A program made the position numbers and the translations under genes. Source: a virus (Duplodnaviria; Heunggongvirae; Uroviricota; Caudoviricetes). From it: 64,000 nucleotides of DNA. Shown one piece after another: positions 1-11,613 of the stretch. A model generated the notes under the pieces. The model was not told the origin of the DNA. It worked only from the letters and a program-made list of their open reading frames with translations, and did not search any database. Numbering within the stretch: position 1 is the stretch's first letter; every line of letters begins with the position of its first letter. The DNA lies in IMG/VR virus record IMGVR_UViG_3300036770_002544, positions 10,654-74,653 of that record, one strand, 5' to 3'.

Positions 1-8
1 TGACACAC

Positions 9-1112
9 TTGCATCAAAATACACAAATTGTCAAAGGCTACGCCGAAACATGGACTTTGGAATTTACAAAACAGCAGTTGAGTAACAAAAATCAAGTTGC
101 TAGGCTAGAAATTGACAACCATACATATGATGATGTAGATTTTAAATCAAGTAAAATACACTGGGATAAAACTGATTTTATTAGTCCCAACGACTGGCTT
201 CCTTTAGAAGTAGCTCGTGGTTGTGCTTTTAGCTGTCATTACTGCGACTATCCTAGGCGTAGTAATTTTGACAGTTACAAGAACGCCGAAGCTCTCAAAC
301 AAGAACTTGTTCGCAATTACGAAGAGTTTGGCGTCACTCGATATCTCTTGGTTGACGACCTGTACAACGACAGTCGCGACAAAGTTCGTATACTTTACGA
401 TAAGGTATGGAGTCAACTGCCATTTAAACCCGAATGGGCCAGCTACATGCGCCTAGACATGTTCTGGGCAGACCCCGAAAGCATAGAAATCGTGCGTGAG
501 TCTGGCGCAAGGATCGGTAGTTTCGGCATCGAAACCTTGCACGATCGTGCGGGCAAAGGCGTGGGCAAAGGACTAGGTCGAGAACGAATCTTACAAACTT
601 TGACAAACCTAAAACAAAGTTGGGGAGACCAGGTCTTGGTTTGTGCAAATTTTATAGCAGGACTTCCGCTTGAGCCATTGGACAGCATAAAGGAAACCAT
701 GGCCTGGTGCCTAGAAACTGATTTGCTGTACAGTTATGCATGGAACCCAATGAACATCAGTAATAGCGCAAGGATTGAAATTGCTAGCGACAAAAAATAT
801 TTGCACAAAATCACGCAAAACAATCACAAATACGAAATAAAGTGGCTGACCCATGACAACTGGGTCAATTCTCAAGGAGTTACCTGGGAACAGGCAGATC
901 AGTTGGTCATGGACCACATGAGCAAGGTCCCTCATGGTATCAAAGTGAATTTTACTGACTATGTTGATTTACGAATGTCCGGGCTAGATCACAATGACAT
1001 CGTAGGCCTAAAATCAGGTGCTACACAACGAGTCAAACTGATTACCGCAGTTGATACAATTAGATCTCGAATTCGTTCTAGACTAGAATCGGTAGTGAAC
1101 ACTAAAATTTAG
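9..1112 (+). CDS. radical SAM domain protein (the 5' end may lie upstream of the window)
   Basis: Cx3Cx2C cluster motif CAFSCHYC near the N-terminus. Long ORF with coding-like composition. Confidence 0.6.
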   Translation: MHQNTQIVKGYAETWTLEFTKQQLSNKNQVARLEIDNHTYDDVDFKSSKIHWDKTDFISPNDWLPLEVARGCAFSCHYCDYPRRSNFDSYKNAEALKQELVRNYEEFGVTRYLLVDDLYNDSRDKVRILYDKVWSQLPFKPEWASYMRLDMFWADPESIEIVRESGARIGSFGIETLHDRAGKGVGKGLGRERILQTLTNLKQSWGDQVLVCANFIAGLPLEPLDSIKETMAWCLETDLLYSYAWNPMNISNSARIEIASDKKYLHKITQNNHKYEIKWLTHDNWVNSQGVTWEQADQLVMDHMSKVPHGIKVNFTDYVDLRMSGLDHNDIVGLKSGATQRVKLITAVDTIRSRIRSRLESVVNTKI

Positions 1113-1123
1113 TCAAAAAGTAG

Positions 1124-1152
1124 TTGACAATAAATTCATAGTTTGCTACAAT
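1124..1152 (+). promoter_or_regulatory. sigma70-type promoter (TTGACA-N17-TACAAT)
   Basis: ttgacaataaattcatagtttgctacaat. It precedes a roughly 800-nt ORF-poor, GC-richer stretch and the tRNA array. Confidence 0.45.
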
Positions 1153-1961
1153 AGATACATGTTAAGAAATTAACAAAACAGAAAAGTTGTTCGCTGTAAA
1201 GAAAACACTCGTGCTAGTCCTGAAAATTTGCGGTAATGATTATAATCCGCGAGCATGGACCTGCTAATCATTGTTCTTTAAAAATTTCGGCTAAGATTTT
1301 TTCTTAGCATTGTTGAGCATACTGACTTTGCTTAACCTCTATCTCAGTATACATGAGAATAAGTTAAGTAAGGCTCGTGAGACCAACGCTAGAGGATGGG
1401 AAGATTGTTACCTACCCCAAAAGCGTCTAAACAATCTGTGGTTCAGTGTGTTCAACAATGTTAAGATGTTAAGATTTTAAGGGCAGTTTATTGTCCTGTA
1501 GCGTATGGTTCGCCCAGCGTTACGAAGAATAAGTCGAGTGATCGACCCAAAGGAGGTAAGCCTACGCAACTCCGCCAGCAATGGTTCGTGTAAACAAGCC
1601 TGCTCACTGCCGCGAGGCAGCGTTCACTGATAAGACCGGTGGATGTATATGTGAAGCAAGTGTAGTGGAAAGAATGTCTGCTCAAGCGCCAGCAATGGTA
1701 ACGCAAGTGGATAGAGAGAAACAGGTGGTGCTGTCCTCACTACAAAACCAACTTGTCAGCAAGTATGAGAAAGGGTAGTGTTATGATCCGAGGAGTCGCT
1801 CCCAAGGGTTGTAGTGCATTGTTAGTGGTTAGTGGGTATAGCAATATACACACCGGTCGCAAAACAACACTGAGTAGTCCGCGAGACAAAAGGTATTTGG
1901 TGAGTTGTATTGGGTAGAGCAAAACTTTATTCAGCAACTGAGTCAGCTCATCAAGGTAGGT

Positions 1962-2034
1962 TCAGTTATAGCACAATTGGTAGTGCATCTCCCTGTTAAG
2001 GAGACGGCTGAAGGTTCAACTCCTTCTAACGTTT
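1962..2034 (+). tRNA. tRNA-Asn(GTT)-like, weak acceptor stem (possible pseudo-tRNA)
   Basis: D-arm gcac/gtgc. Anticodon arm ctcc-CTGTTAA-ggag. T-arm gaagg-TTCAACT-ccttc. The acceptor halves do not pair well. Confidence 0.45.
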
Positions 2035-2453
2035 AAAAAGCAAAGACTGACTCGGTTATCAGTGAAAAGCATCTAATGCTTGACACGCAAGTGAATCAAG
2101 TCCATCGTAGCTCGCAAGGCGAAAGTGGTTTGTACTAGAAGTTTCGTAAGGTGTTAGCGCACTTGAATGGCTCGCAAGGTCAACGGAGAAGAAGGTACAG
2201 AGTAACTGGTAACGACAAGCCTACTGCCTGGCTTTAAAAACGGCGATGCTGACAACAGACAGTGATACCGCAAGGGTTGCTGTGGATGTCGAGAGAAGGT
2301 ATGCTCGCAAGGTGTACTATAATGCTCGAGGTGTTGTTGGCTTAAGGTGTAATCTCAACCTTAGGCACTATTATAAAACACATTACTAAGAGTCCAGGTT
2401 CAGAGCGTGGCATAGTGTGTTTCATAATAGTTATAAATAACTGTAACAAATTG

Positions 2454-2530
2454 ACGCGGTGTGTTAGAAGTGGTATCTGGCCAGGCTCATAACCTGGAGA
2501 TCGGAGGTTCGAATCCTTCCACCGCAACCA
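2454..2530 (+). tRNA. tRNA-Met/Ile2 (CAT)
   Basis: Anticodon arm ccagg-CTCATAA-cctgg. T-arm ggagg-TTCGAAT-ccttc. 3' end caccgca-a-CCA. Confidence 0.6.
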
Positions 2531-2577
2531 AATTCTGGCGTGTTGTATAAATACAACACTTGAAAAACAAATCGTGG

Positions 2578-2606
2578 TTGACACGAGAAGGTAAATAAAG
2601 TACAAT
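2578..2606 (+). promoter_or_regulatory. sigma70-type promoter (TTGACA-N17-TACAAT)
   Basis: ttgacacgagaaggtaaataaagtacaat. The roughly 185-nt unit it drives ends at the hairpin terminator at 2769-2797. Confidence 0.5.
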
Positions 2607-2768
2607 AGGACTTATGATGAAACACACAAAACATTCACAGTTGAACTCTACAATGTGCCAAGCGCAAGCCTGGTCACGTGGGTTTACGATTGTGAATAGT
2701 ATTCCCGGTAGTCAAGGGTCCGTTGGAGACAAAGTGTAACCTAAAAGTACACTAAGAATCTAAAAGGA

Positions 2769-2797
2769 CCCTGGAACTAAAAACTCCAGGGTTTTTC
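2769..2797 (+). terminator. rho-independent terminator
   Basis: ccctgga-actaaaaac-tccaggg followed by ttttt. Confidence 0.7.
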
Positions 2798-2983
2798 ATT
2801 TTAGTGCAAGGCAACGCGAGCCTGTATCACTTTAAACTACAAATGGGCGGCCTGTAGGATGAAGCACTTCTTGTAGTGTGAAAAATTACAGCGTATCGAA
2901 GCATTTTCAGGCCGCAAGGCAAGTGGGTTCATCCATGTAGAATGCTTCGATACACACATTGGAAACAGTGTGTTAAAAATTAT

Positions 2984-3058
2984 GGGCTGTAGGTGTTGTT
3001 GGGGGCACACGGGCTTTGCAAGCCTGGAGGAACGGTTCGATCCCGTTACGGTCCACCA
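2984..3058 (+). tRNA. tRNA-Ala(TGC)
   Basis: Acceptor gggctgt/acggtcc with G:U pairs. D-arm gtgt/acac. Anticodon loop TTTGCAA. T-arm aacgg-TTCGATC-ccgtt. CCA encoded. Confidence 0.7.
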
Positions 3059-3065
3059 TAATTGT

Positions 3066-3139
3066 ATCTCGCTGGTGTAATGGCAGCATAGCGGTCTCCA
3101 AAACCGTTGGTCGGGGTTCGAGTCCCTGGTGGGATGCCA
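3066..3139 (+). tRNA. tRNA-Trp(CCA)
   Basis: Acceptor atctcgc/gtgggat. Anticodon arm gcggt-CTCCAAA-accgt. T-arm cgggg-TTCGAGT-ccctg. Ends in gCCA. Confidence 0.65.
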
Positions 3140-3181
3140 AGTTTGGTTGTAGTCGCAGGTTCGAGTCCTGCCCGCTGGTCA
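3140..3181 (+). pseudogene. tRNA 3'-half fragment (T-arm plus acceptor remnant)
   Basis: gcagg-TTCGAGT-cctgc T-arm with no matching 5' half. It shares a cgctggt direct repeat with the preceding tRNA. Confidence 0.35.
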
Positions 3182-3193
3182 AGTTAAAAGCAG

Positions 3194-3216
3194 CCGCGGT
3201 AGTTTAGAGGTAAAAC
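3194..3216 (+). pseudogene. tRNA 5'-half fragment
   Basis: gccgcggtagtttagaggtaaaac resembles acceptor plus D-arm (compare the tRNA-Phe 5' end gccgcggtagctca). No downstream anticodon or T arms. Confidence 0.3.
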
Positions 3217-3233
3217 AACACCATTTTTATTGT

Positions 3234-3308
3234 AGGGGGTTCGCCAAGTGGTAAGGCATCTGATTTTGATTCAGACATCCGGTGGTTCGATCCCATCACC
3301 CTCTGCCA
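3234..3308 (+). tRNA. tRNA-Gln(TTG)
   Basis: Acceptor agggggt/accctct. D-arm gcc-aagtggtaa-ggc. Anticodon arm tctga-TTTTGAT-tcaga. T-arm ggtgg-TTCGATC-ccatc. gCCA. Confidence 0.7.
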
Positions 3309-3315
3309 AAAATTT

Positions 3316-3340
3316 AGCCGTGTAGCTCAGAGGAAGAGCA
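3316..3340 (+). pseudogene. tRNA 5'-half fragment immediately upstream of the HNH gene
   Basis: gccgtgtagctcagaggaagagca equals acceptor plus D-arm. No anticodon or T arms follow. Confidence 0.35.
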
Positions 3341-3381
3341 AATCGTATGCAGAGCATAAATACATGTAAGGAGTGCTCTGT

Positions 3382-3762
3382 ATGAAAGCAGTATGTAAAA
3401 CATGCAAAAATGAATTTGTAGTTGGAAGAAGTTCTACCGGAAAGTATTGTTCGTTAACTTGTTCAAAAGTAGGACAATCAAACGACCGTAGGCAAAACTT
3501 TTTAGAAGGTAAAATGACTAGCCGTGCACTCATGAAAGTTCATATGACTGACATACACGGCTGGAAATGTATGTGTTGTAATAATACTGAGTGGAACAGT
3601 AAGCCTATACCACTCGAATTAGATCATATCGACGGTAATGCAGGAGATAATAGGCCACAAAATTTAAGATTACTGTGTCCAAATTGTCATGCGCAAACGC
3701 CAACACATAAAGCAAAAAATAAAGGAAACGGAAGAGGTAGTCGAGGTCTTCCGTGGTATTAA
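3382..3762 (+). CDS. HNH homing endonuclease
   Basis: HNH motif ELDHIDGNAGDNRPQNLRLLCPNCHA plus N-terminal Cys pairs. SD taaggag 9 nt upstream of the ATG. Confidence 0.8.
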   Translation: MKAVCKTCKNEFVVGRSSTGKYCSLTCSKVGQSNDRRQNFLEGKMTSRALMKVHMTDIHGWKCMCCNNTEWNSKPIPLELDHIDGNAGDNRPQNLRLLCPNCHAQTPTHKAKNKGNGRGSRGLPWY

Positions 3763-3763
3763 C

Positions 3764-3828
3764 ACCAGGTTAGCTCAGTGGTAGAGCAGCGGCTTGATAA
3801 GCCGTTGGTCGCAAGTTCAAATCTTGCA
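3764..3828 (+). tRNA. tRNA-Ile(GAT)
   Basis: Perfect acceptor accaggt/acctggt. D-arm gctc-agtggtag-agc. Anticodon arm gcggc-TTGATAA-gccgt. T-arm gcaag-TTCAAAT-cttgc. aCCA. Confidence 0.8.
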
Positions 3829-3834
3829 CCTGGT

Positions 3835-3930
3835 ACCAAACAATCCACTGTAGGCTTGGACGCCCGGAATGCATGCGCCGAAGAGACGGTTCGATTCCGT
3901 CCTTGGATAAACCAGGTTCGATCCCTGGAC
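3835..3930 (+). tRNA. atypical roughly 95-nt tRNA-like RNA with two T-arm-like hairpins (class II tRNA, composite or pseudo-tRNA)
   Basis: Perfect 7-bp acceptor ccactgt...acagtgg. Two hairpins gacgg-TTCGATT-ccgtc and ccagg-TTCGATC-cctgg. No clean anticodon arm was found by eye. Confidence 0.35.
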
Positions 3931-3943
3931 AGTGGGCCTTTTT

Positions 3944-4014
3944 ATTCCGCAGAATCCGAGCTAGGTGCACGGACTTGACTGTTAATCAATGATTAGCTGG
4001 GTTCGAACCCCAGA
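3944..4014 (+). tRNA. tRNA-Asn(GTT)-like, degenerate acceptor and D arms
   Basis: Anticodon hairpin ttga-CTGTTAA-tcaa. T-arm ctggg-TTCGAAC-cccag. 3' end atgcgga-g-CCA. The 5' acceptor pairs only 5 of 7. Confidence 0.4.
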
Positions 4015-4018
4015 TGCG

Positions 4019-4094
4019 GAGCCAAACATGGGGGCAGCAGAGGGCTGCGGTGATCCCTTGCAAGGATCATGACTACAAGGGTTCGATACCCTGG
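4019..4094 (+). tRNA. tRNA-Ala(TGC)-like second copy, imperfect acceptor
   Basis: Anticodon arm gatcc-CTTGCAA-ggatc. T-arm aggg-TTCGATA-ccct. Ends ggcctcc-a-CCA. Confidence 0.45.
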
Positions 4095-4123
4095 GCCTCC
4101 ACCAAATAAGCAGATGACGTTTC

Positions 4124-4131
4124 TGCTCTTT
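4124..4131 (+). promoter_or_regulatory. TATAAATA box (T4-type late-promoter-like)
   Basis: tataaata lies 29 nt upstream of the 4160 ATG. A second copy sits at 2432-2439 upstream of a tRNA. Confidence 0.3.
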
Positions 4132-4159
4132 TGTATAAATAAAACAAAGGAGATCGAGC

Positions 4160-4546
4160 ATGAACGTTAATCAAAAGGGCAACATAGGCTTGCTAAAAGT
4201 CATAGGAGACTTGTATAATAAAGGCTACACAGTGTTTAAGCCTTTTGACGATTACAATCCAGTTGACTGTATTGCGATGAACGCAGAAGGCAAGACATTT
4301 AGATTACAGGTGAAGTATCGCAGTCCCGATCGAGATGACTCGTACGAGATTTCTGCTTCATCTATGGTAAATGGTAAGAGAGCACAAATTAACCGCGGAC
4401 TCATTGATTATTGGGCTGTATACCTGTCAGATTTAGACCAGGTAGTGTACATGCCGATAAGTATGATGGAAGGTAAAAAAGTTCACTACATTACCAGAAA
4501 ACAATTAGGTGAGATGGATGAGAGGTTGAAATCGGCACCCTGCTAA
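4160..4546 (+). CDS. hypothetical protein (possible small PD-(D/E)xK-like nuclease)
   Basis: RBS aaggagatcgagcATG. The 3' end overlaps the 5' half of tRNA-Ser by about 38 nt. Confidence 0.5.
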   Translation: MNVNQKGNIGLLKVIGDLYNKGYTVFKPFDDYNPVDCIAMNAEGKTFRLQVKYRSPDRDDSYEISASSMVNGKRAQINRGLIDYWAVYLSDLDQVVYMPISMMEGKKVHYITRKQLGEMDERLKSAPC

Positions 4547-4599
4547 GGTGTTTTCTTAGGAAACTAGGGACGTGGGTTCGAATCCCACTCTCACCACCA
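4508..4599 (+). tRNA. tRNA-Ser(GCT), class II
   Basis: Acceptor ggtgaga/tctcacc. Anticodon arm gcacc-CTGCTAA-ggtgt. Long variable arm. T-arm gtggg-TTCGAAT-cccac. aCCA. Confidence 0.8.
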
Positions 4600-4629
4600 A
4601 TTCGAAGTCTAGCAAACTTCAAAGTTTTC

Positions 4630-4703
4630 GCCCCTGTAGTTAAATGGTAGAACATCGGTTTTGTAATCCGAGGACGGGAGTTCGATTCTCTCTAGGGGCA
4701 CCA
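4630..4703 (+). tRNA. tRNA-Thr(TGT)
   Basis: Acceptor gcccctg/taggggc. D-arm gtt-aaatggtag-aac. Anticodon loop TTTGTAA. T-arm gggag-TTCGATT-ctctc. aCCA. Confidence 0.7.
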
Positions 4704-4710
4704 AATTTAT

Positions 4711-4786
4711 TCCTCAGTAGCTCAGTTGGTAGAGTAGCGGACTGTTAATCCGTTGGTCGCTGGATCGTGCCCAGCCTGGGGAGCCA
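4711..4786 (+). tRNA. tRNA-Asn(GTT)
   Basis: Acceptor tcctcag/ctgggga. D-arm tagctcagttggtagagta. Anticodon arm gcgga-CTGTTAA-tccgt. T-arm gctgg-ATCGTGC-ccagc. gCCA. Confidence 0.85.
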
Positions 4787-4794
4787 AACAAAAT

Positions 4795-4870
<76 letters not shown>

Positions 4871-4876
4871 GGATCA

Positions 4877-5909
4877 GATGTATACTCTAGACTTTTGCGA
4901 AGTTTATATCACTAATGTATGCAATTTAAATTGCACTCATTGTAATCGTTTTAATAATTTTGCTTTTGCAGGACACTCGCGGTGGGAAGATTACCAGCAC
5001 GATTACCAGCAATGGGCAAAAAAAGTAAATTTTAACAGTATCAGTATCCTTGGTGGAGAACCGTTATCCAACCCTGATTTTTTAAATTGGATGCATGGTA
5101 TTGCCACCGTGTGGAACAGTGCAGAAATATCTATTCTCACCAATGGGACACAGTTAGATAGATGGCCCAGTTTGTACAAAGAAATAAAAAAATACAACGG
5201 TCGTGTCACTGTTGTTATAAGCGAACATAGTCCGCAGCACTGGCTTGATGCCATTGGCAATGTAAAAAATTTTTTGCAAGGAACAATAGAAAATCAGGAA
5301 CATAAAACTTGGAAACAGTCTTATGATTCGATCAAAGATTCGTCATGGCCCGACTGCAATACCCCTGATGATTTTTATACCTTGCCTGAGCACATTCAAA
5401 CCGAATGTCAAACAGTGTTTAACATACACCCAACAAACAATGAATTTTCAGCCACCAGCGAGCGTGTTCATTTTTACAAAGACTCTAACAATGTAAAAAT
5501 TCTACTAGAGCCAAGTTGGATGTTTAAACCTAATGCATTGATATACCAAAGCACAAATCAAATTGATTTATACAACAGTGATCCAGAAAAAGCAATAAAA
5601 GCATGCACCATGAAAAAATGTCCGCAGTTCAGTCGCGGCAAACTTTACAAGTGCCCGCCGGTGACTGTGCTAGGTGATTTCATACAGCAATTCTCAATCA
5701 ATGTGTCTGACGCTGATAAGCAACTGATAGATGCGTATAAGCCTGCGTCACACTGTTGGCCTGATGATCAACTTAAGAAATTTTTAGATGATTTAACAGA
5801 TTTAAAAACAATCCCACAATGCAAGTTTTGTCCAGAAGAACTTCCATTTATTAAGTTTTCAGCTGGGACTAAAAAAATCAAACTGTTAAAAAAACAAAAC
5901 TTATCATAA
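4877..5909 (+). CDS. radical SAM protein with C-terminal Cys-rich (SPASM/twitch-like) region
   Basis: CNLNCTHC Cx3Cx2C at residues about 15-22. Extra Cys pairs near the C-terminus (CTMKKCPQF, CKFCPE). The table ORF 4767 start runs through tRNAs; the true start is taken as ATG 4877. Confidence 0.7.
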
Positions 5910-5913
5910 AAAA

Positions 5914-5989
<76 letters not shown>

Positions 5990-6038
5990 AACAAGCCTAC
6001 ACTCAATCCTGCCGCGATGACAGTCCCTGGGCTTTTAC

Positions 6039-6117
6039 ACCACTTTAGCTCAGTTGGACTTAGAGCACTGTGCTACGAACGCAGGGGTCGGGAGTTCGAA
6101 TCTCTCAGGTGGTACCA
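6039..6117 (+). tRNA. tRNA-Arg(ACG)
   Basis: Acceptor accactt/aggtggt. D-arm gctc/gagc. Anticodon arm ctgtg-CTACGAA-cgcag. T-arm gggag-TTCGAAT-ctctc. aCCA. Confidence 0.85.
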
Positions 6118-6242
6118 TTTTGTAATACTTGTGTTTGCCAAAAAGGTAAACCAAAGTATACATTTTTCGGGGCTCGGACGTTTTACAGCGATTCTTTTCT
6201 GCAGAACGTACAAAGATCCACAAGCAAGTAAAACAACAGCAA

Positions 6243-6271
6243 TTGACTCAAAATGACATCTGTTGTATAAT
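6243..6271 (+). promoter_or_regulatory. sigma70-type promoter (TTGACT-N17-TATAAT)
   Basis: ttgactcaaaatgacatctgttgtataat, upstream of the tRNA-Lys pair. Confidence 0.5.
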
Positions 6272-6379
6272 ACATTTTTAATTAGGAACATTGACATGAA
6301 ACGTTCAGCGAAACGATAGTGTCGTCTCAGTACCCTGTATGGTCTGGGATGGCACGTAAAAGACAATTTTTACATCCAT

Positions 6380-6454
6380 CCCTTTGAGATGTTAAGGCAG
6401 CATGCCGGACTCTTAATCCGTGACGTGTGGGTTCGACTCCCACCAGAGGGACCA
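6380..6454 (+). tRNA. tRNA-Lys(CTT)
   Basis: Acceptor ccctttg/cagaggg with G:U pairs. Anticodon loop CTCTTAA. T-arm gtggg-TTCGACT-cccac. aCCA. Confidence 0.7.
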
Positions 6455-6458
6455 TATA

Positions 6459-6535
6459 GGGTTGATAGTTTAATGGCTAAAACATCCGGCTTTTAACCGG
6501 TAAGAGTCAGGGTTCGAATCCCTGTCGACCCACCA
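6459..6535 (+). tRNA. tRNA-Lys(TTT)
   Basis: Acceptor gggttga/tcgaccc. Anticodon arm ccgg-CTTTTAA-ccgg. T-arm caggg-TTCGAAT-ccctg. aCCA. Confidence 0.85.
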
Positions 6536-6668
6536 TATAAAAACATTTTTGACGGGCATCATCGCCAACGCATAGTCGCGGTGCTCTGTTCGGTGACCCT
6601 GGCAGGTTGCGAAAATCTATTGTGCCAGCAATAAGAGAATTATTGAAAATGTTTCTATATGGTATTAT

Positions 6669-6743
6669 GGAGTCGTTAGTTTAGTGGTAAAACCGCGGGT
6701 TGTGATTCCGCTATCACGGGTTCGATTCCCGTACTTCTCCCCA
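6669..6743 (+). tRNA. tRNA-His(GTG) with G-1
   Basis: Anticodon arm gcggg-TTGTGAT-tccgc. D-arm gtt-tagtggtaa-aac. T-arm acggg-TTCGATT-cccgt. 3' end acttctc-c-CCA with an extra 5' G. Two internal acceptor mismatches. Confidence 0.65.
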
Positions 6744-6744
6744 A

Positions 6745-6819
6745 GGTGATATGACGTAGACGGATGCGTAGCGGTTTCATAAGCCGACGAGGTTGGGTCG
6801 GTACCAACTATCACCACCA
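6745..6819 (+). tRNA. tRNA-Met(CAT)-like with non-canonical T-loop
   Basis: Perfect acceptor ggtgata/tatcacc. Anticodon loop TTCATAA. T-arm gttgg-GTCGGTA-ccaac lacks TTC. aCCA. Confidence 0.55.
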
Positions 6820-6820
6820 C

Positions 6821-6895
6821 CGGTCCTTATTTCAATGGATAGAATGCCATGCTTCGAACTTGGCGATGTGGGTTCGATTCCTGCAGGACCGGCCA
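6821..6895 (+). tRNA. tRNA-Arg(TCG), anticodon assignment tentative
   Basis: Perfect acceptor cggtcct/aggaccg. Anticodon loop CTTCGAA. T-arm gtggg-TTCGATT-cctgc. gCCA. Confidence 0.55.
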
Positions 6896-6938
6896 AATGA
6901 TTTGTTAGTGCTGTATATGAACGAATAAATATTTTTTT

Positions 6939-7703
6939 ATGACTATTACTAAATTCACTACTGCACAACAACAGCTTTTGAAATTTGTATTAACGTGTGT
7001 CTCTTCTGTGCTGGGTATCTATGTATACCTAATACTAGGCGGCACCTTACTCAAGGCATTTCTGATATATCTATGTTTTGTATTAGTATCTAGAGTTGCA
7101 AACCTAGGTTATCATAGATGGCTGGCACACAACTTGTTAGAACCTGATTTGTTTGGTAGAATTTTTATACTATGGTGTATGGTAAGTTCGGCGTTAGTGA
7201 AGCCTTTGCCCTATGTCATAGGTCATAGACTGCATCACAAATATTCAGACACTGATAAAGATCCTCATCATCCCGGACTAGGGTTATGGGCTTGCTTGAT
7301 AGGAAACTTTAATGTCGTTGAAAACTTAACAATACCAGTAAAAGATTTGTATAGAAAAAAAGAAGTAATGTTTGTCAATAGATATTACTATCAATTATAT
7401 CTTGCAAACTTGCTATTGTTTTGGTTCATTGACAAAGATATAGTGCTACTAAGTTTCTCACTGTTAAACTTGCGTATGTGGGTCAACATAACTGTGTTCA
7501 ACTATCTTGCACACGGAGGTAAGCACGGAAAATCTCCTAAAAATTTGCCAGCCTGGACTAGTTACGTGTTAGGATATTCGGGAGAACAGTTACACAAAAA
7601 TCATCATGATGATCCTTCGTCTAGCGATTTTGGTAAATTGTCAAGATGGAATTTTGATATCATGTACAAAGTGTACAGCAAAATAGTCAAAGTTAAAAAT
7701 TAA
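6939..7703 (+). CDS. membrane fatty-acid (acyl-lipid) desaturase, delta-9-like
   Basis: Three His boxes HRWLAH, HRLHH, HKNHH. Multiple hydrophobic segments. Confidence 0.8.
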   Translation: MTITKFTTAQQQLLKFVLTCVSSVLGIYVYLILGGTLLKAFLIYLCFVLVSRVANLGYHRWLAHNLLEPDLFGRIFILWCMVSSALVKPLPYVIGHRLHHKYSDTDKDPHHPGLGLWACLIGNFNVVENLTIPVKDLYRKKEVMFVNRYYYQLYLANLLLFWFIDKDIVLLSFSLLNLRMWVNITVFNYLAHGGKHGKSPKNLPAWTSYVLGYSGEQLHKNHHDDPSSSDFGKLSRWNFDIMYKVYSKIVKVKN

Positions 7704-7752
7704 CACTCGGTGATTTCTGTACTACTATTAATCATAGTGTAGGTTATCATCT

Positions 7753-7781
7753 AGTTGACAACAAAACAATCTGCTGTTATA
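7753..7781 (+). promoter_or_regulatory. sigma70-type promoter (TTGACA-N17-TATACT) with palindrome over the -10
   Basis: ttgacaacaaaacaatctgctgttatact. gctgt-tatacta-cagc inverted repeat. Upstream of tRNA-Val. Confidence 0.5.
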
Positions 7782-7818
7782 CTACAGCATGTTCTTTAAA
7801 AATTAAGTTTGATAGTTT

Positions 7819-7903
7819 GCCCCTGTAGCTCAGTGGTAGAGCATCGCTTCGACAAAGCGAGGGTCGGTGGATCGTTCCCACCCAGTGGTACCAGTGTTAT
7901 TTA
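7819..7903 (+). tRNA. tRNA-Val(GAC)
   Basis: D-arm gctc-agtggtag-agc. Anticodon arm tcgct-TCGACAA-agcga. T-arm ggtgg-ATCGTTC-ccacc. cagtggt-a-CCA. Confidence 0.75.
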
Positions 7904-8088
7904 CACTGAGAATCTATCCAGGCCAGTGCCGACATCATGTTGGTAAAATAGCGCATGGTAAGTTTTTCATCGTAAATATCATTGACAAAGATGTAACAAG
8001 CGTCAGCAGTGTCGTTAACTGATAGGTGTATATGCATGTATCCGTTGGCAACTATGAAGTCTCGTGTTTGCATATTTTTATTTATTTT

Positions 8089-8162
8089 GCGGGATTGGCA
8101 TAAGGGTTGTGCAGTAGCCTTCCAAGCTACCCATAGCGGTTCGAGACCGCTATCCCGCTCCA
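8089..8162 (+). tRNA. tRNA-Gly(TCC)
   Basis: Perfect acceptor gcgggat/atcccgc. Anticodon arm gtagc-CTTCCAA-gctac. T-arm agcgg-TTCGAGA-ccgct. tCCA. Confidence 0.8.
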
Positions 8163-8169
8163 CAATTTA

Positions 8170-8244
8170 GGGTGATTAGCTCAGCGGTAGAGTCGCTGCC
8201 TTACACGCAGTTTGTCGGGAGTTCGATCCTCTCATCACCCACCA
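8170..8244 (+). tRNA. tRNA-Val(TAC)
   Basis: Acceptor gggtgat/atcaccc. D-arm gctc-agcggtag-agt. Anticodon arm gctgc-CTTACAC-gcagt. T-arm cggga-GTTCGAT-cctct. aCCA. Confidence 0.85.
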
Positions 8245-8252
8245 ACTTATTT

Positions 8253-8330
8253 CCGAGTGTAGCGCAGTCTGGTTAGCGCATCTGCTTTGGGAGCAGAGGG
8301 TCGTAGGTTCGAATCCTACTACTCGGACCA
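8253..8330 (+). tRNA. tRNA-Pro(TGG)
   Basis: Acceptor ccgagtg/tactcgg. D-arm gcgc-agtctggtta-gcgc. Anticodon arm tctgc-TTTGGGA-gcaga. T-arm gtagg-TTCGAAT-cctac. aCCA. Confidence 0.85.
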
Positions 8331-8337
8331 ATTCAAT

Positions 8338-8415
8338 GTACAGGTGGCAGAGTGGCCCAATGCAAGGGATTGCAAATCCCTAAAGCCGTCGGTTCAAATC
8401 CGACCCTGTACTCCA
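8338..8415 (+). tRNA. tRNA-Cys(GCA)
   Basis: Acceptor gtacagg/cctgtac. Anticodon arm aggga-TTGCAAA-tccct. T-arm gtcgg-TTCAAAT-ccgac. tCCA. Confidence 0.8.
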
Positions 8416-8420
8416 TCTAA

Positions 8421-8510
8421 GGAAGCGTGGTCGAGTGGTCTATGGCTCCGGTCTTGAAAACCGGCGATTACGAAAGTGGTCCGTGAGTTCGAATCTCACC
8501 GCTTCCACCA
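8421..8510 (+). tRNA. tRNA-Ser(TGA), class II
   Basis: Acceptor ggaagcg/cgcttcc. Anticodon arm ccggt-CTTGAAA-accgg. Long variable arm. T-arm gtgag-TTCGAAT-ctcac. aCCA. Confidence 0.85.
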
Positions 8511-8515
8511 TATAT

Positions 8516-8591
8516 GCCGCGGTAGCTCATCAGGTAGAGCAGCAGACTGAAAATCTGTGTGTGGCTGGTTCGAGTCCAGCTCGTGGCACCA
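8516..8591 (+). tRNA. tRNA-Phe(GAA)
   Basis: Acceptor gccgcgg/tcgtggc. D-arm tagctcatcaggtagagca. Anticodon arm gcaga-CTGAAAA-tctgt. T-arm ctggt-TCGAGTC-cagc. aCCA. Confidence 0.85.
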
Positions 8592-8592
8592 A

Positions 8593-9234
8593 TCAATGTC
8601 TATTAGGATCTCGAGTTTTTTCAAACTCTGGCACATGTTCGTTGCAACCAGGAAACCATGCTGGGGCAGGTGGAAGATCACACACTTCTCTAGTGAGATC
8701 TATCAACAAAATGAGACGCCGCTCTGAAGTGTTGTTCCAAACACTATGCAACTTTTGATTGTTGAAAGAAAAGACATCATCCCATAGTACAATTTCGTTT
8801 TCAACTTCGAAACCAATGTCGCCATCAGGAACGTACAAAGGAATATGGATGCGAATGCTTTTGGCATCTCTGTTTTCTATGCCAGTGTGTCTGTAAATAA
8901 TAGAGTTGGGTTCTACAATACTGTAACCAGCTAGGTGGCAGTGTTGTCCAAAAGCTTCAACTAATGAAAATGCAGTGGGATACCGAAGTCTATTGGATTC
9001 TGCAAGAACTCCTGATATATGTTTGATGCCTGATATTTTCCAGGCATTTTCTTTATCGTACAAGGTAGAATTTTGTCCAGTAGGATTTTGACGGTAAGGC
9101 ACGCTAGTAAATTTTTCTCCCGACTGGAAGTCTGGGTGCGCTTTGACAAAGTCTGCAAGTAAAGCAGGTTGTAACGCTCTAAACAATGCAGCAAATTTAA
9201 CTTCGTCGCCGCGATAGATATTTTTAAGTTCCAT
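8593..9234 (-). CDS. aspartyl/asparaginyl beta-hydroxylase-family (AspH-like, 2OG-Fe oxygenase cupin) protein
   Basis: Motif HTGIENRDAKSIRIHIPL matches the AspH H-x-G...N...R-x-H-x-PL signature. Paralog of 10868-11545. Confidence 0.6.
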   Translation of the reverse strand: MELKNIYRGDEVKFAALFRALQPALLADFVKAHPDFQSGEKFTSVPYRQNPTGQNSTLYDKENAWKISGIKHISGVLAESNRLRYPTAFSLVEAFGQHCHLAGYSIVEPNSIIYRHTGIENRDAKSIRIHIPLYVPDGDIGFEVENEIVLWDDVFSFNNQKLHSVWNNTSERRLILLIDLTREVCDLPPAPAWFPGCNEHVPEFEKTRDPNRH

Positions 9235-9291
9235 AGATACTTTCTTTAAAAATATTTATTGATCGTTATGGTACATTTATAATTTAACATT

Positions 9292-9366
9292 GTCCCTGTA
9301 GTTCAATGGATAGAACCGGTTCCTCCTAAGAACAAAATATCAGTTCGATTCTGGTCAGGGATACCA
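9292..9366 (+). tRNA. tRNA-Arg(CCT)
   Basis: Acceptor gtccctg/cagggat. D-arm gttcaatggatagaac. Anticodon loop CTCCTAA. T-arm atcag-TTCGATT-ctggt. aCCA. Confidence 0.75.
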
Positions 9367-9371
9367 AGCAT

Positions 9372-9448
9372 GCCCTGGTGGTGGAATTGGCAGACACACT
9401 GCGTTGAGGTCGCAGGTTCTACGGGTTCGAGTCCCGTCTAGGGTACCA
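9372..9448 (+). tRNA. tRNA with anticodon GAG (Leu-decoding) but short variable loop
   Basis: Acceptor gccctgg/ctagggt. Anticodon arm ctgcg-TTGAGGT-cgcag. T-arm acggg-TTCGAGT-cccgt. aCCA. At 77 nt it lacks the class II long arm expected of bacterial tRNA-Leu. Confidence 0.65.
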
Positions 9449-9802
9449 AGTTTTGTAGTAACCAGAGTCCTGTGTAAAAGGTGTTGCGGACGTCATGCGC
9501 TCTTTTTATCGCATGGGTCAATAAAGATCGAAGCGCAAACTAATAAGGTTGTGTCCTTGCCTACTACAGATTAGTTTTGCAAACAATAAAAACGTGTAGG
9601 GGTAATACCCCTTGAAGCTCTGTGCAGAGATGCACATCTTCTATGGATCAGTTGGTGGGATGAGAGGTCCTTCCCTGTTGCCGGTGTCAAGAGTTATCCA
9701 TTGTGGGAGCCGGAGTGCCAACCCAGGTCGATAGTTTACAGCCACACGCCCTAGCGAAACCGGATTGTTTGCAATTTTTTATTGTTGTTGAGAAGAAAAG
9801 AA

Positions 9803-10018
9803 ATGTATAAAATAGCAGAAAAAGAATTTGCCAATCTGGAGTTGGCAATGGCACATGCCAGGCAGTTAAATGAGTTTGTAACTATTGCTGGACCCGACTT
9901 TGAAGTTTGTGGCCGCTTTGGGGTAGATAGCGTTGAACGCGGGCTGTGCCCTGATGGTATTGCATACGATTGGAACAAGGCCAGTCGTACAGGTCGCGTA
10001 CAACGCGAACGAGTCTAA
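9803..10018 (+). CDS. hypothetical small protein
   Basis: ORF following a roughly 330-nt structured noncoding stretch. Weak RBS. Confidence 0.3.
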   Translation: MYKIAEKEFANLELAMAHARQLNEFVTIAGPDFEVCGRFGVDSVERGLCPDGIAYDWNKASRTGRVQRERV

Positions 10019-10108
10019 CGGAGGGTTAACTGGGCTGGGCCCAGCACTGTCTCGAAAACAGATGGACTGTGAAAACGGTTGGAGTTCGATTCTGCCATCC
10101 CTCTTCCA
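10019..10108 (+). tRNA. tRNA-like element (Ser CGA-type loop) with non-canonical T-arm
   Basis: Acceptor ggagggt/tccctct-t-CCA. Hairpin ctgt-CTCGAAA-acag. D region ctggg-ctgggc-cccag. The T-arm does not fold canonically. Confidence 0.3.
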
Positions 10109-10113
10109 ATTTT

Positions 10114-10184
10114 TGGCTCACTCTAGCTGATCTTGCGGGGTCCAAACTCTCAAGTCTCGGGTGCGATTCCTGAAGGGCCAGCCA
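10114..10184 (+). tRNA. tRNA-like element (acceptor plus T-arm only clearly foldable)
   Basis: Acceptor tggctca/agggcca-g-CCA. T-arm tcggg-TGCGATT-cctga. No clear anticodon arm. Confidence 0.3.
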
Positions 10185-10241
10185 TATACCGGTTTACACA
10201 AAACCGTAATATCAAGTATAATATATACTTGTGCAACCAAT

Positions 10242-10318
10242 GCCCCTGTGATGGAATTGGTATACGTGTCGGATTCAAAATCCGAATTTTGCGGGTTCGA
10301 GTCCCGCTGGGGGCACCA
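10242..10318 (+). tRNA. tRNA with anticodon CAA (Leu-decoding), short variable loop
   Basis: Acceptor gcccctg/tgggggc with G:U pairs. Anticodon arm tcgga-TTCAAAA-tccga. T-arm gcggg-TTCGAGT-cccgc. aCCA. Confidence 0.6.
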
Positions 10319-10333
10319 TTTTATAGAAAGACC

Positions 10334-10807
10334 ATGATGAAGAAAATCGATCTAGAACAAGTACGCCAGTTTATTGAAGCACAAACACCAGAAACAAAAA
10401 TCTATCTGGGTTGTGACTCCGAACGTCTGCGTGTCGACGGCCGTTGGTATGCCGATTATATTCTAGCGATTGTTGTTCACATCAATGGCAACAACGGTTG
10501 TAAGATTTTCGGCGAAGTACATCGTGAACCGGTGTGGGATGCCAAGCCAGGCAAGCCAAGTATGCGTCTTATGACCGAAGTGTACAAAGTCAGCGAACTG
10601 TATCTCAAGTTAGCAGAAGTGTTAGAAGGTCGACAAGTCGAAGTTCACTTGGACATCAACCCCGACGAACACTATGGATCAAGCTGTGTTATTAGCCAAG
10701 CTGTGGGCTACATCAAAGGCACTTGCAACGTGGTTCCGTTCGTCAAGCCACATGCGTTTGCTGCTAGTTATGCTGCTGACCGATTCAAGGGTTTGAGAGC
10801 AGCCTAA
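10334..10807 (+). CDS. hypothetical protein
   Basis: ATG immediately after the tRNA. The table ORF 10133 start runs through the tRNA, so the internal Met start MMKKIDLEQ is taken. Followed by a strong terminator. Confidence 0.5.
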   Translation: MMKKIDLEQVRQFIEAQTPETKIYLGCDSERLRVDGRWYADYILAIVVHINGNNGCKIFGEVHREPVWDAKPGKPSMRLMTEVYKVSELYLKLAEVLEGRQVEVHLDINPDEHYGSSCVISQAVGYIKGTCNVVPFVKPHAFAASYAADRFKGLRAA

Positions 10808-10817
10808 ACAAACATGG

Positions 10818-10858
10818 CCCCCGTCAGTTGCCTACTAGGGACTGCTCGGGGGTTTTTC
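10818..10858 (+). terminator. bidirectional rho-independent terminator between convergent genes
   Basis: cccccg-tcagttgcctactagggactgct-cggggg followed by ttttt. Confidence 0.7.
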
Positions 10859-10867
10859 TTGATTAAA

Positions 10868-11545: not shown

Positions 11546-11613
11546 AAAAATATTTACTCTAGTAATTCCGTGCGGAACAAAAATCAGTTGTGCAAATCGA
11601 GGTATATAAAGTT

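What the first reader, a model, noticed from the sequence alone, without database searches (positions are those of the whole stretch)
2578..2797. Promoter-to-terminator unit of about 185 nt with no convincing ORF: candidate phage sRNA
A near-consensus promoter (TTGACA-N17-TACAAT) at 2578-2606 and a strong hairpin/U-run terminator at 2769-2797 bracket about 160 nt. Only a 39-codon ATG ORF with no SD lies inside. Immediately downstream (2893-2952) is a second long-range inverted repeat gtatcgaagcatt / aatgcttcgatac enclosing a GCAA tetraloop hairpin (gccgcaaggc).
Basis: seen in the sequence. Interest (0 to 1): 0.5.

Follow-up and report, generated by a model that had tools for sequence, protein, structure and literature searches.

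The report
Leader-ORF attenuator inside phage tRNA array
The promoter-to-terminator unit is real and conserved in over a hundred uncultivated phages, but it is not a plain non-coding sRNA: it holds a conserved small ORF plus a helix that competes with the terminator, which looks like a translation-sensing switch placed in front of phage tRNA genes.

Summary
In detail: promoter at 2578-2606, hairpin and U-run at 2766-2796, a 41-codon ORF at 2614-2739 with no SD, and no Rfam family.

Comparison with 154 unique related contexts from viral, metagenome and genome contigs changes the interpretation. 120 of them are full units sharing these features:
- a TTGACA-N17-TAyAAT promoter;
- an ATG 5-10 nt after the -10 (leaderless) in 117 units, and a 40-48 nt leader in 3 (an AAGGAA Shine-Dalgarno was read in L042/L043/L054);
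- a 21-48-codon frame that stays open although the peptide is poorly conserved, except for a Trp codon in 24 of 26 clusters;
- a stop codon that never precedes the end of a 5' arm (xGGGUCy), which pairs with the first 6-9 nt of the terminator stem and covaries with it;
- same-strand tRNA genes or SD-led ORFs directly downstream, with no promoter detected in between.

Best reading (about 0.55): a ribosome-dependent transcription attenuator. Translation to the stop codon blocks the antiterminator, so transcription terminates. A stalled or absent ribosome allows read-through into a second structured RNA (2798-2979) and the tRNAs. The terminated product would still appear as a roughly 185-nt RNA. 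All evidence is computational.

The parts
2540..2559 (+). Small hairpin (GTGTTGTA-TAAA-TACAACAC) 18 nt upstream of the -35. It marks the 5' edge of the conserved module.
   Evidence: Read. Similar hairpins with an ATAAATA loop appear in homologs (alignment). The 98%-identical relative L091 resumes homology at 2541, after a 2-kb insertion. Function not tested.
2578..2606 (+). Sigma-70-type promoter TTGACA-N17-TACAAT.
   Evidence: The promoter criterion (at least 10/12, as found by the search) is one of the three filters that define the 120 full units out of 154 unique contexts. The transcription start is predicted, not measured.
2614..2739 (+). Leader ORF of 41 codons (MMKHTKHSQLNSTMCQAQAWSRGFTIVNSIPGSQGSVGDKV). 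The ATG lies 7 nt after the -10, so the mRNA is predicted to be leaderless.
   Evidence: The frame from the aligned ATG is open in every homolog. P(open) per sequence is 0.10-0.37, and the summed log10 P over 15 representatives is -10.3, though they are not independent. The ATG is 5-10 nt after the -10 in 117 of 120 units, and an SD-led version occurs in L042/L043/L054/L031. Amino-acid constraint is weak. There is no Pfam or PHROG family, and 41 database clusters are all 'hypothetical'.
2671..2673 (+). Nearly invariant in-frame Trp codon (codon 20).
   Evidence: Trp is present in 118 of 120 units and 24 of 26 peptide clusters. It falls at codon 16-26 (median 20), and the first Trp codon lies a median 42 nt (IQR 42-43.75) upstream of the 5' arm.
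2631..2700 (+). Domain 1: a long irregular hairpin inside the ORF. Its apical part carries CCAGG/CCUGG in most homologs, with the Trp codon in the 3' strand.
   Evidence: Predicted in the minimum-energy fold of nearly all of the 21 homologs. On alignment A5, 75% of cells are paired against 25-39% for slid controls, and 18 cells are changed on both sides against 10.6+-3.0, with 4 of 500 shuffles reaching that. Mean folding z-score is -1.7. Support is moderate.
2715..2772 (+). Domain 2, the predicted antiterminator. The 5' arm AGGGUCC (2715-2721) pairs with GGACCCU (2766-2772), and the stop codon (2737-2739) lies inside this stem-loop.
   Evidence: It forms in 20 of 21 homologs when the terminator's 3' arm is left out. 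On A3, 90% of cells are paired and 23 cells are changed on both sides against 7.1+-2.0, with 0 of 500 shuffles reaching that. Arm/hairpin combinations are UCC/GGA 45, UCU/AGA 23, UUC/GAA 16 and UGU/ACG 3, among others. The stop codon never begins before the end of the 5' arm in any of the 120 units.
2766..2796 (+). Intrinsic terminator GGACCCUGGA-ACUAAAAAC-UCCAGGGU followed by UUUU. Its first 6-9 nt are shared with domain 2, so the two structures are mutually exclusive.
   Evidence: The outer stem pairs show compensatory changes. Energies constrained to terminator or antiterminator differ by -4.4 to +7.4 kcal/mol, apart from one outlier, L024. The loop ACUAAAMAC stayed nearly invariant although the first search left it free.
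2798..2979 (+). Unit B: a separate conserved structured RNA between the terminator and the first downstream tRNA.
   Evidence: Alignment. RNAalifold gives 32 consensus pairs, 10 of them with compensatory changes. No Rfam match, and the simple scan lists no promoter-like site inside it. Function unknown.
2984..3139 (+). tRNA-Ala(UGC) at 2984-3058 and tRNA-Trp(CCA) at 3066-3139, the first genes downstream and the presumed targets of read-through.
   Evidence: The scan lists no + strand promoter-like site between 2606 and 3926. Across the family, 64 of 65 units with at least 1.5 kb of downstream sequence have a same-strand tRNA there and none has an opposite-strand tRNA. Trp is the first downstream tRNA in 47 units and Ala in 17.
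2455..2530 (+). tRNA-Met(CAU), the usual upstream neighbour of the unit (context only).
   Evidence: It is the nearest upstream same-strand tRNA in 64 of the 84 units that have one.

Best explanation
The unit is a ribosome-dependent (leader-ORF) transcription attenuator embedded in a phage tRNA array.

**Proposed mechanism.**
1. Host RNA polymerase starts at the sigma-70 promoter, so the transcript begins at or within a few nt of the AUG (a leaderless mRNA).
2. The first 15 nt or so are A-rich and unpaired. A ribosome loads there and translates through domain 1, which contains a nearly invariant Trp codon.
3. The ribosome then translates through the 5' arm (AGGGUCC) of domain 2 and reaches a stop codon that lies inside domain 2.
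4. While the ribosome occupies that region, the 5' arm cannot pair with GGACCC(UGG). The terminator hairpin therefore forms, and transcription ends at the U-run, releasing an RNA of about 185 nt.
5. If no ribosome is there, because it never loaded or because it stalled upstream (for example at the Trp codon), domain 2 forms first. It forms first because it is transcribed before the terminator's 3' arm. It sequesters the terminator's 5' arm, and the polymerase reads through into unit B and the tRNA genes, or in other phages into SD-led small ORFs.

**Net logic.** Healthy translation shuts off this promoter's contribution to the downstream RNAs, and impaired translation turns it on.

**Shown here:** conservation of each part, the open frame, the two mutually exclusive helices with covariation, the position of the stop codon, and the downstream gene arrangement.

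**Inferred:** the transcription start, that translation occurs, that termination is conditional, and what signal is sensed.
For: 1. The frame stays open while the peptide drifts. This suggests the act of translation is selected rather than the product.
2. The start codon is 5-10 nt after the -10 in 117 of 120 units, and one sub-lineage carries the same ORF behind an AAGGAA SD.
3. The antiterminator helix overlaps the terminator's 5' arm and covaries with it. On A3, 23 cells are changed on both sides against 7.1+-2.0, with 0 of 500 shuffles reaching that. GGA/UCC, AGA/UCU, GAA/UUC, ACG/UGU and CGG/CCG variants all occur. The terminator's outer stem covaries too.
4. The antiterminator forms in the folds of 20 of 21 homologs when the terminator's 3' arm is left out, and the two states are close in energy.
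5. The stop codon never begins before the end of the 5' arm, and it ends 16-31 nt before the hairpin, although ORF length ranges from 21 to 48 codons.
6. Downstream genes appear to depend on read-through. In L044 and L034 tRNA-Gly starts 8 and 29 nt after the U-run. SD-led ORFs start 16-27 nt after it in about 15 loci. The scan lists no promoter-like site in window 2607-3925.
7. The unit always sits in same-strand tRNA arrays: 64 of 65 units, with none facing an opposite-strand tRNA.
Against: - There are no expression data. The transcription start, translation and conditional termination are all predictions.
- There is only one conserved regulatory-type codon (Trp), not a run of them.
- A permutation test found no link between leader residues and the identity of the next two tRNAs (P = 0.28-0.46).
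- tRNA-Trp is among the first two downstream tRNAs in only about 6 of 23 peptide clusters.
- Leaky terminators followed directly by genes are common in phages, so the lack of an intervening promoter is not decisive.
- The near-invariant terminator loop (ACUAAAMAC) is not explained by this model. The same hairpin also ends an unrelated 135-aa gene outside tRNA arrays, with no competing arm.
- Support for domain 1 is only moderate.
- The family was collected through the hairpin sequence, so more divergent members were not sampled.
Confidence: 0.55

Rival explanations
1. It is an autonomous small-protein gene. The 36-48-aa peptide, with its invariant Trp and frequent NSIPG...GS, is the functional product. 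The hairpin is an ordinary, somewhat leaky terminator, and the RNA helices serve only mRNA stability or translation rate.
For: The frame is open and an SD-led variant exists. Trp is nearly invariant and the NSIPG motif recurs in the largest cluster. Gene callers have called the peptide in 41 database clusters. The same hairpin acts as a plain terminator after another gene.
Against: Amino-acid identity is no higher than nucleotide identity, and there is little third-position excess. Compensatory RNA changes appear to drive amino-acid changes, for example 5' CUAUUC to CUGUUC (Tyr to Cys) opposite 3' GAAUAG to GAACAG. A covarying helix that competes with the gene's own terminator is hard to explain for a constitutive end. 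The minimal 21-22-codon variants share almost no peptide sequence with the rest, yet keep the ORF, arm, terminator and tRNA layout.
Confidence: 0.2
2. It is a trans-acting, possibly dual-function, small RNA. The terminated RNA of about 185 nt acts on host or phage targets through its conserved hairpin loop or single-stranded parts, as the attenuator-derived rnTrpL does in Sinorhizobium. The ORF would be secondary.
For: The module runs discretely from promoter to terminator. The loop ACUAAAMAC is nearly invariant although the first search left it free. The U-rich 3' end is typical of Hfq-type sRNAs (established knowledge). There is precedent in PMC7968998 and PMC7298713.
Against: No target was sought or found. 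The frame is kept open and the stop codon position is constrained. The same hairpin and loop occur as a terminator of an unrelated gene, so the loop need not be a seed. This rival is compatible with the attenuator model rather than exclusive of it.
Confidence: 0.12
3. It is a RiPP precursor peptide modified by one of the phage's many radical-SAM enzymes.
For: The window encodes at least seven radical-SAM proteins, one with a weak SPASM-domain match below Pfam's cut-off. In L091 a radical-SAM cassette sits directly upstream of the unit. The Trp is invariant, and WSRSF/WSRGF motifs recall the Trp-containing core of darobactin (from memory, not tested).
Against: Radical-SAM homologs were detected in only 15 of 47 loci that carry the unit, and several loci over 10 kb have none. 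The peptide is poorly conserved outside the Trp. The tRNA context is universal, whereas the radical-SAM context is not.
Confidence: 0.05
4. It is a purely non-coding sRNA, and the ORF is accidental.
For: The RNA structure is significant (z = -3.5). There is no SD in the window copy.
Against: The frame from the homologous ATG is open in all homologs. Across 21 sequences the other two frames contain 62 and 42 stops (frame 0 is stop-free by definition, so the shuffle test is the valid one). An SD-led version exists, and the spacing from stop codon to hairpin is fixed.
Confidence: 0.04

Closest known systems
Leader-peptide transcription attenuators of amino-acid operons (E. coli trpL, hisL, pheL, thrL; established knowledge)
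   Same: A short ORF at the 5' end, an intrinsic terminator before the regulated genes, an antiterminator that shares sequence with the terminator's 5' arm, a stop codon placed so that a finishing ribosome blocks the antiterminator, and a conserved Trp codon upstream of it.
   Different: One Trp codon instead of a run of regulatory codons. The mRNA is leaderless. No 1:2 pairing sequesters the antiterminator arm, so the untranslated state is predicted to read through rather than super-attenuate. The downstream genes are tRNAs and a structured RNA in a phage, not biosynthetic enzymes.
Ribosome-mediated attenuators that sense translation inhibition (uORF plus terminator/antiterminator upstream of resistance genes, e.g. 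B. subtilis vmlR, PMC9226507)
   Same: An upstream ORF whose ribosome occupancy decides between terminator and antiterminator. The output rises when translation is impaired.
   Different: No antibiotic-resistance gene is involved. The context is a phage tRNA array, the ORF is leaderless, and the signal is unknown.
Sinorhizobium meliloti trpL attenuator, which gives the sRNA rnTrpL and the peptide peTrpL (PMC7968998, PMC7298713)
   Same: The terminated attenuator transcript is a discrete small RNA that also encodes a peptide.
   Different: No trans target or peptide function is known here, and the sequences are unrelated.
Small stable RNAs of the phage T4 tRNA cluster (species 1 and 2, rnaD/rnaC; from memory)
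   Same: Small RNAs of unknown function encoded among phage tRNA genes.
   Different: No DNA similarity to any of 50,697 GenBank phage records, only tRNA matches. As I recall, the T4 RNAs are processed from tRNA precursors rather than being promoter-terminator units containing an ORF.
T-box riboswitches (tRNA-sensing antiterminators; established knowledge)
   Same: A terminator/antiterminator switch linked to tRNA biology.
   Different: No Rfam T-box hit even at E<=10. No specifier loop or T-box motif was seen. An ORF is present, and the downstream genes are tRNAs rather than synthetases.
GOLLD RNA (Rfam RF02032), the neighbour at 1897-2361
   Same: It is also found in phage tRNA arrays, and it co-occurs with the unit in this window and in L019.
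   Different: It is a separate element, separated from the unit by tRNA-Met. The unit and unit B do not match the GOLLD model.

Membership tests
Ribosome-dependent (leader-peptide) transcription attenuator | A short translated ORF in the 5' part of the transcript, upstream of the regulated genes | tested here: met
   The ORF is open in all homologs from a homologous ATG at the predicted start, and an SD-led variant exists. Translation is inferred, not measured.
Ribosome-dependent (leader-peptide) transcription attenuator | An intrinsic terminator between the leader ORF and the downstream genes | tested here: met
   A 10-pair hairpin plus U-run at 2766-2796, conserved and with covarying outer pairs.
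Ribosome-dependent (leader-peptide) transcription attenuator | A mutually exclusive antiterminator helix that shares nucleotides with the terminator | tested here: met
   2715-2721 pairs with 2766-2772. On A3, 90% of cells are paired and 23 cells are changed on both sides against 7.1+-2.0, with 0 of 500 shuffles reaching that. The energies of the two states are comparable.
Ribosome-dependent (leader-peptide) transcription attenuator | The stop codon is placed so that a terminating ribosome prevents the antiterminator from forming | tested here: met
   The stop codon begins 0-42 nt after the end of the 5' arm and ends 16-31 nt before the hairpin in all 120 units. This is geometry only.
Ribosome-dependent (leader-peptide) transcription attenuator | Regulatory codons cognate to the regulated pathway | tested here: inconclusive
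   A single Trp codon is present in 24 of 26 clusters at a fixed distance from the arm. tRNA-Trp is the first downstream tRNA in 47 units. However, leader residues do not track the identity of the downstream tRNAs (P = 0.28-0.46).
Ribosome-dependent (leader-peptide) transcription attenuator | Termination efficiency changes with translation status | not testable with these tools
   This needs in vitro coupled transcription-translation, Term-seq or reporter fusions.
Trans-acting non-coding sRNA | No translated ORF | tested here: not met
   The open frame is conserved and an SD-led variant exists.
Trans-acting non-coding sRNA | A conserved accessible seed complementary to targets | not tested
   The loop ACUAAAMAC is conserved, but no target search was possible because the host is unknown.
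Any Rfam 15 family | A covariance-model match at or near the gathering score | tested here: not met
   Only noise-level hits fall in 2531-2983, for example STnc180 at 17 bits against a 50-bit threshold.
RiPP precursor with radical-SAM maturase | Consistent co-location with the modifying enzyme gene | tested here: not met
   A radical-SAM homolog was found in 15 of 47 loci that carry the unit.
Type I toxin-antitoxin | A small hydrophobic, membrane-active peptide | tested here: not met
   The peptides are rich in Ser, Gly and Thr, hydrophilic, and have no hydrophobic stretch. An antisense RNA was not specifically searched for.

The most novel reading that the evidence does not exclude
Large uncultivated phages gate part of their tRNA arrays, together with an unknown structured RNA (unit B), with a leaderless, Trp-codon-bearing leader ORF that reads the state of host translation. 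When ribosomes stall or fail to load, for example after tRNA depletion or cleavage by host defences or when Trp-tRNA is scarce, the antiterminator wins and the phage makes more of its own tRNAs. This would be the first attenuator known to control tRNA genes, and the first feedback loop between translation capacity and phage tRNA supply.
Probability: 0.35. Interest if true: 0.85.

Novelty: new variant of a known kind. Interest (0 to 1): 0.65.

Why it matters
Phage tRNA arrays are usually treated as passively expressed gene sets, and how their output is controlled is largely unknown. A conserved module that couples ribosome progress on a tiny ORF to read-through into tRNA genes would give phages a way to adjust tRNA supply to the state of host translation. 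That bears directly on current work on tRNA-targeting defence systems.

The promoter is a near-consensus sigma-70 site and the whole unit is under 260 nt. The model can therefore be tested in E. coli with reporter fusions even though the phages themselves are uncultivated.

The work also defines three unannotated elements for databases: the attenuator unit, a second structured RNA (unit B), and a small protein family encoded directly downstream of the unit in other phages.

Tried and rejected
- **Neighbour-gene route to homologs.** The radical-SAM gene at 9-1112 gave one viral locus (L001) with no tRNAs and no GOLLD. Exact-protein lookups of nearby genes gave nothing useful.
- **GenBank phages.** No DNA similarity to the unit, only tRNA matches.
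- **RNAalifold on raw MAFFT alignments.** It recovered only the terminator and did not recover domain 1. I had to use per-sequence folds and named-structure counts instead.
- **Codon-position and synonymous/non-synonymous signal.** Weak, so coding could not be argued from that signal. The argument rests on the open frame, the start position and the SD-led variant.
- **My stop-count comparison (0 versus 62 and 42).** This is partly circular because frame 0 was defined as the open one. The shuffle probabilities for a fixed start are the valid test.
- **Codon-specific sensing matched to the next tRNAs.** Not supported (P = 0.28-0.46).
- **RiPP precursor.** Radical-SAM linkage is inconsistent.
- **Family libraries.** Pfam and PHROGs have nothing for the leader peptide, and Pfam has nothing significant for the downstream small protein.
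- **Literature.** No report of an attenuator or leader ORF in phage tRNA arrays in the searchable library.
- **Generic terminator cassette in this phage.** Rejected for this window: the hairpin occurs only once in 64 kb. It does serve as a plain terminator in another context in related contigs.

Full report
**Context.** The first 12 kb of the window is a + strand phage tRNA array. ARAGORN tRNAs in 1-12000. A GOLLD RNA sits at 1897-2361 (Rfam RF02032, 213 bits) with a tRNA-like insert at 1965-2030. The finding lies between tRNA-Met(CAU) at 2455-2530 and tRNA-Ala at 2984-3058. The window resembles known phages only at its tRNAs. It encodes many radical-SAM proteins and uses sigma-70-type promoters, with 12 near-consensus sites against 1.35 expected.

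**Check of the observation.**
- Promoter TTGACA-N17-TACAAT is at 2578-2606.
- The hairpin is 2766-2775 paired with 2785-2794, with a 9-nt loop and a U-run at 2792-2796. The consensus scan missed it on the + strand only because its loop limit is 8 nt.
- The single ORF runs 2614-2739, which is 41 codons, with no SD.
- The inverted repeat is at 2893-2905 and 2941-2953, around a GCAA hairpin.
- The predicted transcript folds better than all 200 shuffles, z = -3.5.
- No Rfam family matches, even at E<=10.

**Relatives.**
- A search of viral contigs that fixed only the terminator stem and U-run and left the loop free returned 27 loci. BLAST then showed homology across 2541-2975 in many of them.
- A relaxed pattern gave 81 viral loci, 6 genome loci and at least 120 metagenome loci.
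- After removing duplicates there are 154 unique contexts. 120 of them are 'full units', meaning a promoter of at least 10/12, an ORF ending 15-35 nt before the hairpin, and a complementary 5' arm of at least 7/9.
- The full units fall into 26 peptide clusters at 60% identity.
- A 98%-identical relative (L091) has a 2-kb radical-SAM cassette inserted between tRNA-Met and position 2541. This shows that the unit starts there and behaves as a module.

**The ORF is real.**
- In the alignment of 21 first-round homologs the promoter is conserved, and an ATG follows the -10 by 6-10 nt. In the full set the gap is 5-10 nt in 117 of 120 units. The transcript should therefore begin at or next to the AUG, which explains the missing SD.
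- From that homologous ATG the frame is open for 21-48 codons in every member. For a fixed start the chance of that is 0.10-0.37 per sequence, and the summed log10 P over 15 representatives is -10.3, though they are not independent.
- L042, L043 and L054 carry the same ORF behind a leader of about 45 nt with AAGGAAACAAAATG, and L031 has a similar SD-led arrangement. That is independent evidence of translation.
- The peptide is nonetheless weakly constrained. Amino-acid identity is about equal to nucleotide identity, and third positions are only slightly enriched in differences.
- The peptide has no Pfam or PHROG family. It appears only as 'hypothetical protein' in 41 metagenomic clusters.
- The main exception to the weak constraint is a Trp. 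It is present in 118 of 120 units and in 24 of 26 clusters, at codon 16-26, and the first Trp codon lies a median 42 nt (IQR 42-43.75) upstream of the 5' arm.

**RNA architecture.** Folding each homolog on its own gives the same three-part layout in nearly all of them.
- **Domain 1 (window 2631-2700)** is a long hairpin inside the ORF. Named-helix counting gives 75% of cells paired against 25-39% for slid controls, and 18 cells changed on both sides against 10.6+-3.0, with 4 of 500 shuffles reaching that. Mean folding z-score is -1.7. Support is moderate.
- **Domain 2 (2715-2772)** pairs xGGGUCy with the first 6-9 nt of the terminator stem. It forms in 20 of 21 homologs when the terminator's 3' arm is withheld, and its energy is close to that of the terminator state.
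- Domain 2 covaries: GGACCC with GGGUCC, AGACCC with GGGUCU, GAACCC with GGGUUC, CGGCCC with GGGUCG or GGCCG, ACGCCC and GCACCC with GGGUGU. On alignment A3, 90% of cells are paired and 23 cells are changed on both sides against 7.1+-2.0, with 0 of 500 shuffles reaching that.
- A caveat applies to that count. The arms were located as the best complement near the hairpin, although nearly all share the same GGGU motif and therefore the same register.
- **The terminator.** Its outer pairs also show compensatory changes. Its inner stem was fixed by the search pattern and says nothing either way.
- **Stop codon.** It never starts before the end of the 5' arm (0-42 nt after it), and it ends 16-31 nt before the hairpin, in all 120 units. 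A ribosome that finishes the ORF must therefore have opened domain 2 and be sitting inside it.

**What lies downstream.**
- In 64 of 65 units with at least 1.5 kb of downstream sequence there is a same-strand tRNA within that distance, and none has an opposite-strand tRNA.
- In the window, the simple scan lists no + strand promoter-like site between 2606 and 3926.
- In L044 and L034 a minimal unit (a 21-22-codon leaderless ORF, no domain 1 and no Trp) is followed after 8 and 29 nt by tRNA-Gly.
- In about 15 loci an SD-led small ORF starts 16-27 nt after the U-run.
- These genes can only be transcribed through the terminator.
- In many loci, including the window, the terminator is followed by unit B (2798-2979). 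Unit B is a separate structured RNA with 32 consensus pairs, 10 of them with compensatory changes.

**Interpretation.** The combination fits a ribosome-dependent transcription attenuator. The elements are an ORF kept open with a drifting peptide, a start at the 5' end, a stop inside a covarying helix that competes with a covarying terminator, and promoter-less genes immediately downstream.
- A ribosome that reaches the stop codon blocks the antiterminator, and transcription terminates.
- A ribosome that is absent or stalled upstream leaves domain 2 free to form before the terminator's 3' arm is made, and transcription reads through.
- Because nothing sequesters the 5' arm in the untranslated state, the default is predicted to be read-through, unlike trpL.
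- Transcripts arriving from upstream, for example from the promoter at 1124 through GOLLD and tRNA-Met, would carry the AUG internally without an SD. On this model they would pass the terminator. This is inference.

**What is sensed is open.**
- The fixed position of the Trp codon relative to the RNA elements (a tight 42 nt) contrasts with its variable distance to the stop codon (7-26 codons). This favours a stall site on the mRNA over a nascent-chain effect at termination.
- tRNA-Trp is the most common first downstream tRNA, in 47 units. That is largely one big cluster, however.
- A permutation across 23 clusters found no relation between leader residues and the next two tRNAs.

**Unexplained.**
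- The terminator loop ACUAAAMAC is almost invariant.
- The same hairpin ends an unrelated 135-aa gene outside tRNA arrays in other contigs. It may be a preferred terminator of this phage group or the binding site of a factor.

**Rivals.**
- An autonomous small-protein gene (0.2) is weakened by the weak peptide constraint, by RNA-driven amino-acid changes, and by the competing helix.
- A trans-acting or dual-function sRNA (0.12) is compatible with the attenuator model, has a precedent in rnTrpL/peTrpL (PMC7968998, PMC7298713), and is untested.
- A RiPP precursor (0.05) is weakened because radical-SAM genes accompany the unit in only 15 of 47 loci.
- A purely non-coding sRNA (0.04) is contradicted by the open frame and the SD-led variant.

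**Novelty.** Leader-ORF attenuators are classical. A leaderless one that guards tRNA genes and a structured RNA inside phage tRNA arrays was not found in Rfam, Pfam, PHROGs or the searchable literature. I rate it a new variant of a known kind. All conclusions are computational.

Noticed in passing
window 1124-2361: A GOLLD RNA (Rfam RF02032, 213 bits, 1897-2361) with an embedded tRNA-like element at 1965-2030. It is preceded by about 740 nt without a convincing ORF (1153-1896), probably its variable 5' half, and by a consensus promoter at 1124-1152. L019 aligns to 1520-2340 at 77% identity.
   Followed up: partly
window 2798-2979: Unit B: a conserved structured RNA of about 180 nt directly upstream of the next tRNA. 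It has at least four helices, 10 pairs with compensatory changes, and conserved single-stranded motifs (AACGAGR loop, CAAAYGGGCGG, GAAAAAU). It has no Rfam match and its function is unknown.
   Followed up: partly
L007, L014, L020, L022, L029, L033, L041, L047, L058, L062, L064, L067 (16-27 nt after the hairpin's U-run): A family of SD-led small proteins (43-60 aa, motif ...LTxEQxxKLIExKxERA...) is encoded immediately after the terminator in many related contigs. It has no significant Pfam hit. The window lacks it.
   Followed up: partly
L025, L037, L088 (about 19 nt after the U-run, before unit B); a similar ORF start in L024: A 15-codon SD-led ORF, MTTEEYW(K/Q/R)WIH(D/N)NVQ, with two Trp codons, sits between the terminator and unit B. 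Its stop codon lies in a small hairpin. It could be a second leader ORF.
   Followed up: no
window 3127-3249: A weak YrlA (Y-RNA-like) Rfam hit (28.6 bits against a 69-bit threshold, E = 0.0017) spans the gap between tRNA-Trp and tRNA-Gln. The gap contains T-arm-like and D-arm-like pieces that ARAGORN does not call as a tRNA.
   Followed up: no
window 2540-2559 and 2590-2597; homologs: A hairpin with an (A)TAAATA loop lies just upstream of the -35, and a conserved TAAATA motif lies in the promoter spacer. Several homologs have a full TATAAATA there, which resembles the T4 late-promoter consensus (from memory). This could be a second promoter class or a regulator binding site.
   Followed up: no
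L091 92-2166, against window 2535-2540: A near-identical relative has a 2-kb cassette (a 501-aa radical-SAM gene plus a 128-aa ORF) inserted exactly between tRNA-Met and the unit. The window itself holds at least seven radical-SAM genes, plus HNH (3373-3762) and PD-(D/E)XK (4160-4546) endonuclease genes inside the tRNA array. This suggests frequent cassette insertion between tRNA genes.
   Followed up: partly
L030, L036, L039, L040, L045, L051 (e.g. L040 5218-5625, with the hairpin near 5649): The same hairpin, with an AAUUAAAAAC loop, follows a 135-aa protein gene (ending ...ATFTNL) in contigs with no tRNAs and no competing 5' arm. There it appears to be a plain terminator.
   Followed up: partly
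window 1153-1170 and 7784-7810: Two other strong promoters are followed within 5-6 nt of the -10 by an ATG that opens only a 4-5-codon ORF (MLRN*, MFFKN*). These may be chance or mini-ORFs at transcript starts.
   Followed up: no
window 2376-2424, against L018 8855-8903: A 49-nt stretch just 3' of the GOLLD match is 98% identical to a stretch in an otherwise divergent contig.
   Followed up: no
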